Source: Escherichia coli O157:H7
GTDB taxonomy: Bacteria > Pseudomonadota > Gammaproteobacteria > Enterobacterales > Enterobacteriaceae
NCBI RefSeq assembly: GCF_013167455.1
Contig: NZ_CP038331.1
DNA length: 6,675 bases
Reading direction: 5' to 3' (one strand)
Shown here: positions 2,379-2,435 of the stretch, in pieces
Numbering within the stretch: the first letter of the stretch is position 1
How the letters are laid out: every line of letters begins with the position of its first letter
The notes under the pieces: model-generated
What the model was told of the DNA's origin: nothing
The model's input: the letters and a program-made list of their open reading frames with translations, nothing else
The model's database searches: none
Translations under genes and position numbers: made by a program

Positions 2379-2435
2379 TCATGAGTGATTTTAATATCTG
2401 GCATTTAAGTATAAATGTCAGATATTCACTCATGA
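2379..2435 (+). repeat. Imperfect inverted repeat (stem-loop) between immunity and lysis genes
   Basis: TCATGAGTGA at 2379-2388 pairs with TCACTCATGA at 2426-2435, a perfect 10-bp reverse complement. A second stem, ATATCTG 2394-2400 with CAGATAT 2419-2425, lies inside it, leaving a 5-nt bulge and an 18-nt AT-rich loop. It starts 1 nt after the cdi stop and ends 2 nt before the cdl Shine-Dalgarno; no U-tract follows. Confidence 0.6.

What the first reader, a model, noticed from the sequence alone, without database searches (positions are those of the whole stretch)
2379..2435. Stem-loop occupying the whole cdi-cdl intergenic gap
A 10-bp perfect stem plus a 7-bp inner stem fills the space between the immunity stop and the lysis-gene Shine-Dalgarno. 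There is no U-tract, so it is not a classical intrinsic terminator. It could be an RNA stability or processing element, or a partial attenuator that keeps lysis-protein expression below colicin and immunity expression, as described for terminators upstream of lysis genes in E-type colicin operons.
Basis: partly seen in the sequence, partly recalled or inferred. Interest (0 to 1): 0.35.

Follow-up and report, generated by a model that had tools for sequence, protein, structure and literature searches.

The report
Colicin D version of T1 hairpin
The long RNA hairpin between the colicin D immunity and lysis genes is real and is this plasmid's copy of the "T1" stem-loop that other nuclease-colicin operons use to hold lysis-gene expression below toxin and immunity expression, so it is an ordinary element with a few lineage-specific modifications.

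Summary
The window is a complete 6,675-bp colicin D plasmid of the pColD157 type. It has a 10-bp outer helix, a 5-nt bulge, a 14-bp inner helix with one G.U pair, and an AGUA loop (-28.5 kcal/mol, z = -8.5).

[quoted passage not shown] Evidence: BLAST E = 3e-8; a covariance model built only from E-type T1 sequences hits it at E about 0.004-0.014; the alignment has no gaps; and several base pairs changed on both sides.

Three features are specific to ColD:
- An added outer helix pairs the sequence right after the cdi stop codon with the conserved lysis-gene leader.
- The loop GGA, which is CsrA site BS1 in ColE7, is lost.
- The stem is AT-rich.

The CsrA site at the ribosome-binding site (ACAAGGAG) is kept. 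The outer helix competes with a small hairpin that buries the cdl start codon.

The most likely function, inferred from ColE2 and ColE7 work, is to lower and stabilise lysis-gene expression. Classical termination looks weak. Nothing was tested experimentally. This is a known kind of element with a lineage-specific variant, and interest is low.

The parts
2376..2378 (+). cdi (colicin D immunity) stop codon TAA, directly next to the hairpin base
   Evidence: ORF 2115-2378. Pfam Colicin_immun. Annotated in the identical plasmid NZ_CP024053.1.
2379..2388 (+). 5' arm of the ColD-specific outer helix (TCATGAGTGA)
   Evidence: Perfect 10-nt complement of 2426-2435 (I10). No counterpart in E-type operons. 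In the 7.3-kb ColD lineage it reads ATATGAGTGA.
2389..2393 (+). 5-nt bulge UUUUA on the 5' side only
   Evidence: Minimum-energy and centroid structures.
2394..2425 (+). Inner stem-loop, homologous to T1: 14 bp including G2401.U2418, with loop AGUA at 2408-2411
   Evidence: Fold. The alignment with E-group T1 has no gaps. BLAST of 2403-2460 against the Salmonella salamae operon gives 84.5% identity, E = 3e-8. The E-type-only covariance model hits 2390-2430 at 19.2 bits.
2426..2435 (+). 3' arm of the outer helix (TCACTCATGA). It is part of the conserved lysis-gene leader (TCACTCAYRA in the closest E-type Salmonella relative)
2430..2451 (+). Alternative hairpin B: UCAUGACA (2430-2437) pairs with UGUCAUGA (2444-2451), with loop AGGAGA. 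It holds the cdl AUG (2448-2450) in its stem and presents GGA in its loop. It cannot form together with the lower six pairs (TCATGA) of the outer helix.
   Evidence: -8.8 kcal/mol alone. The conformer with hairpin B scores -27.6 against -29.3 for the full hairpin. Ensemble probability is 0.08 in this plasmid and 0.73 in the 7.3-kb lineage. Weaker versions are present in E-type leaders.
2435..2442 (+). ACAAGGAG: the Shine-Dalgarno sequence of cdl, identical to the core of ColE7 CsrA-binding site BS2 (ACAAGGAGU)
   Evidence: Invariant across all 13 aligned ColD and E-type leaders. BS2 was defined experimentally in ColE7 (PMC2896534).
2448..2594 (+). cdl, the colicin release (lysis) lipoprotein gene
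   Evidence: ORF. Pfam Lysis_col, E = 5.5e-22.
2603..2625 (+). Classical hairpin followed by a T-run after cdl, equivalent to T2 and the true end of the operon
   Evidence: Terminator scan: 10 pairs followed by TTTTCTGCGC.

Best explanation
The hairpin is the colicin D operon's version of the T1 intercistronic stem-loop of nuclease-colicin operons.

It forms in the polycistronic SOS-induced cda-cdi-cdl mRNA, immediately after cdi. By analogy with ColE2 and ColE7 it should make cdl-containing message and lysis protein scarcer than colicin and immunity protein. This could happen by stopping a fraction of RNA polymerases, or by acting as a barrier at which 3' ends accumulate, protecting the upstream cda-cdi message. 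It could also shield the 5' side of the cdl message.

Translation of cdl is then tuned at the retained ACAAGGAG site. That site is both the ribosome-binding site and the homologue of ColE7 CsrA site BS2.

Shown here: the structure, its statistical significance, its position, and its homology to T1.

Inferred: every functional step, taken from experiments on ColE2 and ColE7. Because ColD has no U tract and an AT-rich stem, I consider 3'-end stabilisation and translational effects more likely than efficient intrinsic termination.
For: Structure:
- -28.5 kcal/mol, z = -8.5.

Homology to T1:
- BLAST of a Salmonella E-type operon aligns its T1 and leader to window 2403-2460 at 84.5% identity, E = 3e-8.
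- MAFFT aligns the ColD and E-type hairpins without gaps, with loops in register.
- A covariance model built only from eight E-type T1 sequences (41 positions, no leader) gives its best window hit at 2390-2430: full length, 19.2 bits, E about 0.004-0.014. The next best hit scores 8.9 bits.
- A local alignment restricted to T1 beats all but 2 of 2000 shuffles.
- On the 13-sequence alignment the T1 helix is 94% paired, against 32-51% when partners are slid. Five of the 16 pairs changed on both sides, four of them between the ColD and E groups.

RNA-level structure on the sense strand:
- E-type T1 folds only on the sense strand, -15.6 against -3.6 kcal/mol.

The hairpin belongs to the lysis-gene module:
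- D-type toxin and immunity genes in Serratia, Raoultella, Yersinia and Klebsiella oxytoca have no lysis gene. Three of these four are followed by an ordinary terminator; the K. oxytoca hairpin has only a weak T tail.

Function of T1 in ColE2 and ColE7:
- Short and long transcripts, reduced lysis-gene transcription, CsrA sites BS1 and BS2, and a reported role in cel mRNA stability (PMC2896534; PMC4353708; PMC4161892; PMC5157957).
Against: - There are no transcript or expression data for ColD.
- There is no U tract and only 3 of the 14 inner pairs are G-C, so classical intrinsic termination is expected to be poor.
- The loop GGA (BS1), which is conserved in E-group and DF13-type T1 hairpins, is absent. 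The two-site CsrA mechanism of ColE7 therefore cannot operate unchanged.
- Only two ColD operon lineages exist in all collections searched.
- Their 7-9% divergence in the hairpin equals that of cdi and cdl.
- The stem changes break or weaken pairs without compensation. Comparison within ColD therefore gives no evidence of selection on the structure.
- The 7.3-kb lineage does not reach the reporting threshold of the T1 model.
Confidence: 0.6

Rival explanations
1. Translational switch. The outer helix is an anti-sequestering element. The central TCATGA(CA) at 2430-2437 pairs either with the 5' arm (2379-2384), which leaves the cdl ribosome-binding site and AUG free, or with UGUCAUGA (2444-2451), which forms hairpin B, buries the AUG and presents GGA to CsrA. 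A ribosome terminating at the cdi UAA, which touches the helix, must melt the 5' arm. Active cdi translation, or CsrA binding, would then push the RNA into the closed form and hold lysis-protein synthesis back. This would be negative translational coupling.
For: - The two conformers are nearly equal in energy: -29.3 against -27.6 in this plasmid, and -17.0 against -17.4 in the 7.3-kb lineage.
- Masking the 5' arm makes hairpin B the minimum-energy fold at -25.8.
- Ensemble probability of hairpin B is 0.08 here and 0.73 in the other lineage.
- G2434 is partnered by C2380 or C2447 here, and by U or U in the other lineage. Both competitors changed together.
- Three of the five TCATGA sites in the window lie within 73 nt.
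- Hairpin B is perfect only in ColD, which is also the only group with the outer helix.
Against: - The evidence is purely thermodynamic prediction, within the error of the energy model.
- The predicted balance differs about ten-fold between the two lineages, so it is not obviously conserved.
- Only two lineages are available, so the joint change at 2380 and 2447 is a single observation.
- The outer helix forms first during transcription and may not exchange on a useful time scale.
Confidence: 0.17
2. RNase III processing site. The 24-bp, nearly perfect double-stranded stem with an asymmetric bulge is cut by RNase III. This separates cda-cdi from cdl and gives the two halves different stabilities, as in phage T7 early mRNAs.
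For: - The stem spans about two helical turns, 10 + 14 bp, with an internal 5-nt bulge. That is the general substrate shape from established knowledge of RNase III.
- Its intercistronic location fits.
- The ColD stem is much longer than the 16-bp, G.U-rich E-type T1.
Against: - I found no published link between colicin operons and RNase III.
- No cleavage-site rules were tested.
- The 7.3-kb lineage carries mismatches that shorten the continuous helix.
Confidence: 0.08
3. Efficient classical intrinsic terminator. Most transcripts simply stop at the hairpin.
For: T1 of ColE2, ColE7 and ColE9 is called a transcriptional terminator in the literature. The position is equivalent.
Against: - There is no U tract: the tail is CAAGGAGAUGU after the full stem, or CACUCAUGA after the inner stem.
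- The stem is AT-rich, with 25% G+C in the T1-homologous part.
- The terminator scan does not call it, while T2 at 2603-2625 is called.
- The E-group T1 has at least UUUC after its stem. ColD does not.
Confidence: 0.08
4. No present function. The hairpin is a decaying T1 relic plus a palindrome made by mutation, for example template-switch 'perfection' of a quasi-palindrome, or a scar of the recombination that joined the D-type toxin and immunity module to a lysis module.
For: - Homology to E-type operons starts only at about 2403. The 5' part, 2379-2402, has no detectable relative.
- D-type modules elsewhere lack the lysis gene and the hairpin.
- Divergence between ColD lineages equals that of the neighbouring genes, with no compensation.
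- The conserved GGA loop motif is lost.
Against: - Stem length and loop position are kept between ColD and the E group through changes on both sides of four pairs.
- Both ColD lineages keep a stable structure.
- A lethal gene immediately downstream makes some control element likely.
Confidence: 0.07

Closest known systems
[quoted passage not shown]
   Same: - Same position, between the immunity stop codon and the lysis-gene ribosome-binding site.
- The stem-loop is homologous in sequence: a 15-16-bp stem and a 4-nt loop in the same register.
- It is followed by the same leader ...TCAC..ACAAGGAG..ATGAAAAA.
- Like ColE7's T1, it lacks a canonical U tract and is not called by the simple terminator scan.
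   Different: - ColD adds a 10-bp outer helix that begins on the first base after the stop codon and uses the leader as its 3' arm. Total energy is -28.5 kcal/mol, against -18 to -20 for E-type T1.
- The loop is AGUA instead of AGGA, so the conserved GGAUGA motif (CsrA BS1) is gone.
- The stem has 25% G+C against 39-50%.
- It carries one G.U pair, where E-type T1 hairpins carry several.
- There is no UUU after the stem.
CsrA-repressed cel leader of ColE7 (BS1 in the T1 loop plus BS2 at the Shine-Dalgarno sequence; Yang et al. 2010, PMC2896534)
   Same: The BS2 core ACAAGGAG is identical and overlaps the ribosome-binding site. It can be presented in the loop of a small hairpin whose stem closes with ACA/UGU.
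   Different: There is only one GGA site. The second, tethering site in the T1 loop is missing in both ColD lineages. In this plasmid the hairpin that presents BS2 is predicted to be mostly displaced by the outer helix. CsrA binding to ColD RNA has not been tested.
Classical Rho-independent terminator
   Same: A stable hairpin at the end of a coding region.
   Different: There is no U tract and the stem is AT-rich. The real example in this operon is T2 at 2603-2625. D-type operons without a lysis gene mostly have such terminators right after the immunity gene.
Intercistronic RNase III processing hairpins (phage T7 early region type)
   Same: A long, interrupted double-stranded stem between two cistrons.
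   Different: There is no evidence of cleavage, and the resemblance rests on shape alone.

Membership tests
Colicin-operon T1 intercistronic stem-loop | Lies between the immunity-gene stop codon and the lysis-gene Shine-Dalgarno sequence on the sense strand | tested here: met
   The hairpin is at 2379-2435, the cdi stop at 2376-2378 and the ribosome-binding site at 2437-2442.
Colicin-operon T1 intercistronic stem-loop | Sequence and structure homology to E-group T1 | tested here: met
   BLAST E = 3e-8. The E-type-only covariance model hits 2390-2430 at 19.2 bits, E about 0.004-0.014 (rough calibration), and this is the top hit in the window. Shuffle test p about 0.001. The 7.3-kb ColD lineage alone does not reach the model's reporting threshold.
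Colicin-operon T1 intercistronic stem-loop | GGA (GGAUGA) motif in the loop, which is CsrA site BS1 | tested here: not met
   The loop is AGUA (AUUA in the other lineage). All E-type and DF13-like sequences examined have GGAUGA.
Colicin-operon T1 intercistronic stem-loop | Produces a short toxin-immunity transcript and a rarer long transcript that includes the lysis gene | not testable with these tools
   This needs northern blot, 3'-RACE or Term-seq data. It is known for ColE2 and ColE7 only from the literature.
CsrA-regulated lysis-gene leader (ColE7 type) | [quoted passage not shown] | tested here: met
   ACAAGGAG at 2435-2442 is invariant in the alignment. This tests sequence only, not binding. 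The ungapped SELEX consensus does not match within 3 mismatches.
CsrA-regulated lysis-gene leader (ColE7 type) | A second upstream GGA site that allows the CsrA dimer to bridge two sites | tested here: not met
   There is no GGA anywhere in 2379-2435.
Rho-independent (intrinsic) terminator | G+C-rich stem immediately followed by a U tract | tested here: not met
   The scan does not call it. The tail is CAAGGAGAUGU, and the T1-homologous stem has 25% G+C.
RNase III substrate | About two turns of double-stranded RNA, cleaved by RNase III | tested here: inconclusive
   The length criterion is met, with 24 bp and a bulge. Cleavage cannot be tested here.
Any Rfam family | Match to a curated covariance model | tested here: not met
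   No hit in 2379-2451, even at E <= 1. Only RNAI at 2654-2759 passes.

The most novel reading that the evidence does not exclude
In colicin D the ancestral T1 stem-loop has been rebuilt into a two-state translational switch. The added outer helix and a start-codon-sequestering hairpin compete for the same TCATGA segment. Ribosomes terminating at the adjacent cdi stop codon, and possibly CsrA at the single remaining GGA site, shift the RNA to the closed form. This would delay lysis-protein synthesis while toxin and immunity protein are still being made. It would replace the two-site CsrA mechanism of E-group colicins, whose loop site ColD has lost.
Probability: 0.15. Interest if true: 0.5.

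Novelty: new variant of a known kind. Interest (0 to 1): 0.25.

Why it matters
Lysis proteins kill the producing cell, so the ratio and timing of lysis-gene expression relative to toxin and immunity expression decide how much colicin is released and at what cost. ColD plasmids of this type are common in Shiga-toxin-producing E. coli; 111 of 5,426 complete genomes carry this region. If the ColD variant controls cdl differently from ColE2 and ColE7, with no loop CsrA site, a longer stem and a competing start-codon hairpin, it would be a natural comparison case for how lysis timing is set. Otherwise this is an expected regulatory hairpin in a plasmid family that has been studied for decades.

Tried and rejected
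1. Mobile-element or repeated-palindrome origin. The sequence occurs only in ColD plasmids: 54 plasmid records and 111 E. coli genomes, always one operon copy per plasmid unit. The other metagenome hits to the 20-mer were unrelated chance matches.

2. Antisense promoter inside the hairpin. Two promoter-like sites on the minus strand match 9 of 12 positions. The window total of 5 is at the shuffle expectation of 5.6.

3. Small ORF at 2381-2518 (45 aa) starting inside the hairpin. It has no ribosome-binding site and overlaps cdl out of frame. I did not pursue it.

4. Homology of the 5' part of the hairpin with the 3' flank of the closest D-type immunity gene, in Serratia and Raoultella. A shared TAATATCT is not significant: 129 of 2000 shuffles score as well.

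5. More ColD diversity for a covariation test. One scan each of the metagenome and genome collections gave only the two known operon lineages plus three single-base variants.

6. My first constrained fold of hairpin B used wrong pair indices. It was redone correctly.

7. Hofinger et al. 1998 (pColD157) and Cascales et al. 2007 are not held in the library, and Roos et al. 1989 was not found. I therefore could not check whether this hairpin was already described for ColD.

8. Termination-reinitiation coupling through the closeness of the stop codon and ribosome-binding site at the hairpin base. I rejected this by reasoning: a terminating ribosome must unwind the outer helix, which removes the closeness.

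Full report
**What the window is.** The 6,675-bp window is 100% identical to complete circular E. coli plasmids of the same length, for example NZ_CP024053.1. These plasmids are of the pColD157 type (PMC10758439). The main features are:
- cda (colicin D) at 25-2118;
- cdi (immunity) at 2115-2378;
- cdl (lysis lipoprotein) at 2448-2594;
- a ColE1-type replicon with RNAI at 2654-2759 on the minus strand;
- rop and mobilisation genes.

**The observation.**
- The outer arms, 2379-2388 and 2426-2435, are perfectly complementary.
- The inner stem is 14 bp (2394-2407 with 2412-2425) and has one G.U pair.
- The loop is AGUA, and a 5-nt bulge UUUUA sits on the 5' side.
- The 57-mer folds at -28.5 kcal/mol, against -7.95 +/- 2.41 for shuffles (z = -8.5; 0 of 200 shuffles as good).
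- The hairpin starts on the base after the cdi stop codon and ends one base before the AAGGAG of cdl.
- No U tract follows, and the consensus terminator scan does not call it. The same scan does call the hairpin plus T-run at 2603-2625 after cdl.

**Relatives.** The region is found in 54 plasmid records and in 111 of 5,426 complete E. coli genomes, always on plasmids. Only two lineages of the operon exist: the pColD157 type, and a type about 9% diverged that is carried by plasmids of about 7.3 kb. One scan each of the metagenome and genome collections added only single-base variants.

Between the two lineages the hairpin differs at 4-5 of 57 positions (7-9%). That is the same divergence as cdi (10.6%) and cdl (8.8%). 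The stem changes are T2379A, C2380T and T2425C, plus C2402A or A2403T in sub-variants. They break or weaken pairs and none is compensated. Comparison within ColD therefore says nothing for or against selection on the structure.

**Homology to T1.** E-type and tRNase-type colicin operons in E. coli and Salmonella carry a hairpin at the same place. It is followed by the same leader and the same start of the lysis gene.
- BLAST aligns the Salmonella salamae intergenic region to window 2403-2460 at 84.5% identity, E = 3e-8.
- MAFFT aligns the ColD inner hairpin and the E-type hairpin without gaps, loop on loop.
- A covariance model built from eight E-type hairpins only (41 positions, 16 pairs, no leader, no ColD sequence) finds window 2390-2430 as its best hit. 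The hit is full length at 19.2 bits, with E about 0.004 for window and L024 together and 0.014 over nine loci. The next hit scores 8.9 bits. The model also finds the hairpin of a DF13-like Klebsiella operon.
- A local alignment restricted to the hairpin beats 1,998 of 2,000 shuffles.
- On the 13-sequence alignment the 16-pair helix is 94% paired, against 32-51% with slid partners. Five pairs changed on both sides, four of them separating the ColD and E groups.
- E-type hairpins fold only on the sense strand because of their G.U pairs. The family is therefore an RNA structure in the mRNA.

This hairpin is the element the literature calls T1. ColE7-K317 itself is locus L016.

D-type toxin and immunity genes in Serratia, Raoultella, Yersinia and Klebsiella have no lysis gene. 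In Serratia, Raoultella and Yersinia the immunity gene is followed by an ordinary terminator; in Klebsiella oxytoca the hairpin has only a weak T tail. The hairpin therefore travels with the lysis-gene module, not with the toxin module.

**What is specific to ColD.**
1. A 10-bp outer helix. Its 5' arm has no detectable relative. Its 3' arm is the conserved leader TCACTCAYRA.
2. The loop is AGUA where every E-type and DF13-like hairpin has AGGA within GGAUGA. In ColE7 this GGA is CsrA-binding site BS1 (PMC2896534).
3. The T1-homologous part has 25% G+C and folds at -16 kcal/mol, against 39-50% and -18 to -20 in the others. With the outer helix the whole structure reaches -28.5.
4. The UUU that follows the E-group stem is absent.

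The second ColE7 CsrA site, ACAAGGAGU at the ribosome-binding site, is conserved as ACAAGGAG in all sequences.

**A competing structure.** The segment UCAUGACA (2430-2437) can also pair with UGUCAUGA (2444-2451). This forms an 8-bp hairpin (-8.8 kcal/mol) with AGGAGA in the loop and the cdl AUG in the stem. E-type leaders have a weaker form of this hairpin with a C.A mismatch.
- In this plasmid the full hairpin (-29.3) is slightly better than the inner stem plus this hairpin (-27.6). In the other lineage the order is reversed (-17.0 against -17.4).
- The predicted occupancy of the start-codon hairpin is 0.08 here and 0.73 in the other lineage.
- Masking the 5' arm, as a ribosome terminating at the adjacent UAA would, makes the start-codon hairpin the best fold.
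- G2434 is contested by C2380 and C2447 here, and by U and U in the other lineage.

This suggests a switch, but it rests on energy predictions and a single two-lineage comparison.

**Mechanism.** The best-supported reading is that this is the ColD T1. For ColE2 and ColE7 the literature reports several things:
- an abundant short toxin-immunity transcript and a rarer long transcript that includes the lysis gene;
- a lower transcription rate for the lysis gene;
- CsrA repression of cel translation of about five-fold;
- a statement, from unpublished data of those authors, that destabilising T1 causes rapid decay of cel mRNA.

By homology and position, the ColD hairpin should likewise set the ratio of lysis expression to toxin and immunity expression.

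ColD lacks a U tract and has an AT-rich stem, and ColE7's T1 also fails the terminator scan. I therefore weight 3'-end protection, 5'-side stabilisation and translational effects above efficient intrinsic termination.

The rivals are a translational switch (0.17), an RNase III site (0.08), an efficient classical terminator (0.08) and a functionless relic or recombination scar (0.07).

**Novelty.** Terminator-like hairpins upstream of colicin lysis genes are textbook knowledge, and this plasmid family has been sequenced since 1989 and 1998. I could not read those papers to see whether the hairpin was noted. The analysis adds three points: the homology to T1, the outer-helix extension with loss of the loop CsrA site, and the competing start-codon hairpin. 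I rate it a new variant of a known kind, with low interest unless the switch is confirmed.

Noticed in passing
window 6622-6654 (continues across the circular junction to cda at 25): A perfect 16-nt inverted repeat, ACTGTACATAAAACCA/TGGTTTTATGTACAGT, lies upstream of cda and just downstream of a TTGACA at 6590. It has the CTGT...ACAG form of two overlapping LexA (SOS) boxes typical of colicin promoters. The terminator scan also flags it because a T-rich run follows.
   Followed up: no
window 2603-2625: A hairpin plus T-run lies right after the cdl stop codon and is called on both strands. It is the likely operon terminator (T2). It sits 29 nt from the 3' end of the RNAI gene (2654-2759, minus strand).
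   Followed up: partly
window 2115-2118: The cda stop codon and the cdi start codon overlap as ATGA. This suggests translational coupling of toxin and immunity.
   Followed up: no
window 4186-5811 (+): A 541-aa ORF has a relaxase (MobA/VirD2-like) domain at its N-terminus (Pfam PF03432, E = 4.8e-6). It contains the MbeB ORF (4901-5461) and overlaps the MbeD ORF, both in other frames. It is not in the gene table of the identical RefSeq plasmid. That table is known to be incomplete, or the gene may be marked as a pseudogene.
   Followed up: partly
L031 (JQCU01000264.1, 6,778 bp): A contig filed under Acinetobacter idrijaensis strain MII is a circularly permuted copy of this E. coli ColD plasmid, more than 99% identical. 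Contamination of the assembly, or a very recent transfer, seems likely.
   Followed up: partly
L007, L008, L009, L010 (about 2760-2850 in each): Colicin-D-type immunity genes in Serratia, Raoultella and Yersinia are followed by ordinary G+C-rich terminators with T-runs and no lysis gene. The Klebsiella oxytoca copy has a similar hairpin with only a weak T tail. The Yersinia copy is an orphan immunity gene next to an E3-type immunity gene.
   Followed up: partly
L017 (NZ_CP115369.1) 716-750: An E-type immunity and lysis cassette that lacks the adjacent colicin gene has a T1 hairpin with a 3-nt deletion in its 3' arm. This may be decay of the element once the toxin gene is gone.
   Followed up: no
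L029 (metagenome contig, 3.3x coverage), equivalent to window 2445: A pColD157-type variant has G2445A. The change breaks the C2436-G2445 pair of the start-codon hairpin and lowers its predicted occupancy to zero. The low coverage means it could be a sequencing error.
   Followed up: partly
window 2595-2700 compared with L002, L024 and L027: Divergence between the two ColD lineages jumps from about 9% in the operon to 24-38% just downstream of cdl. This points to a recombination boundary at the end of the operon. L027 carries the 7.3-kb-type operon on a more divergent backbone.
   Followed up: partly
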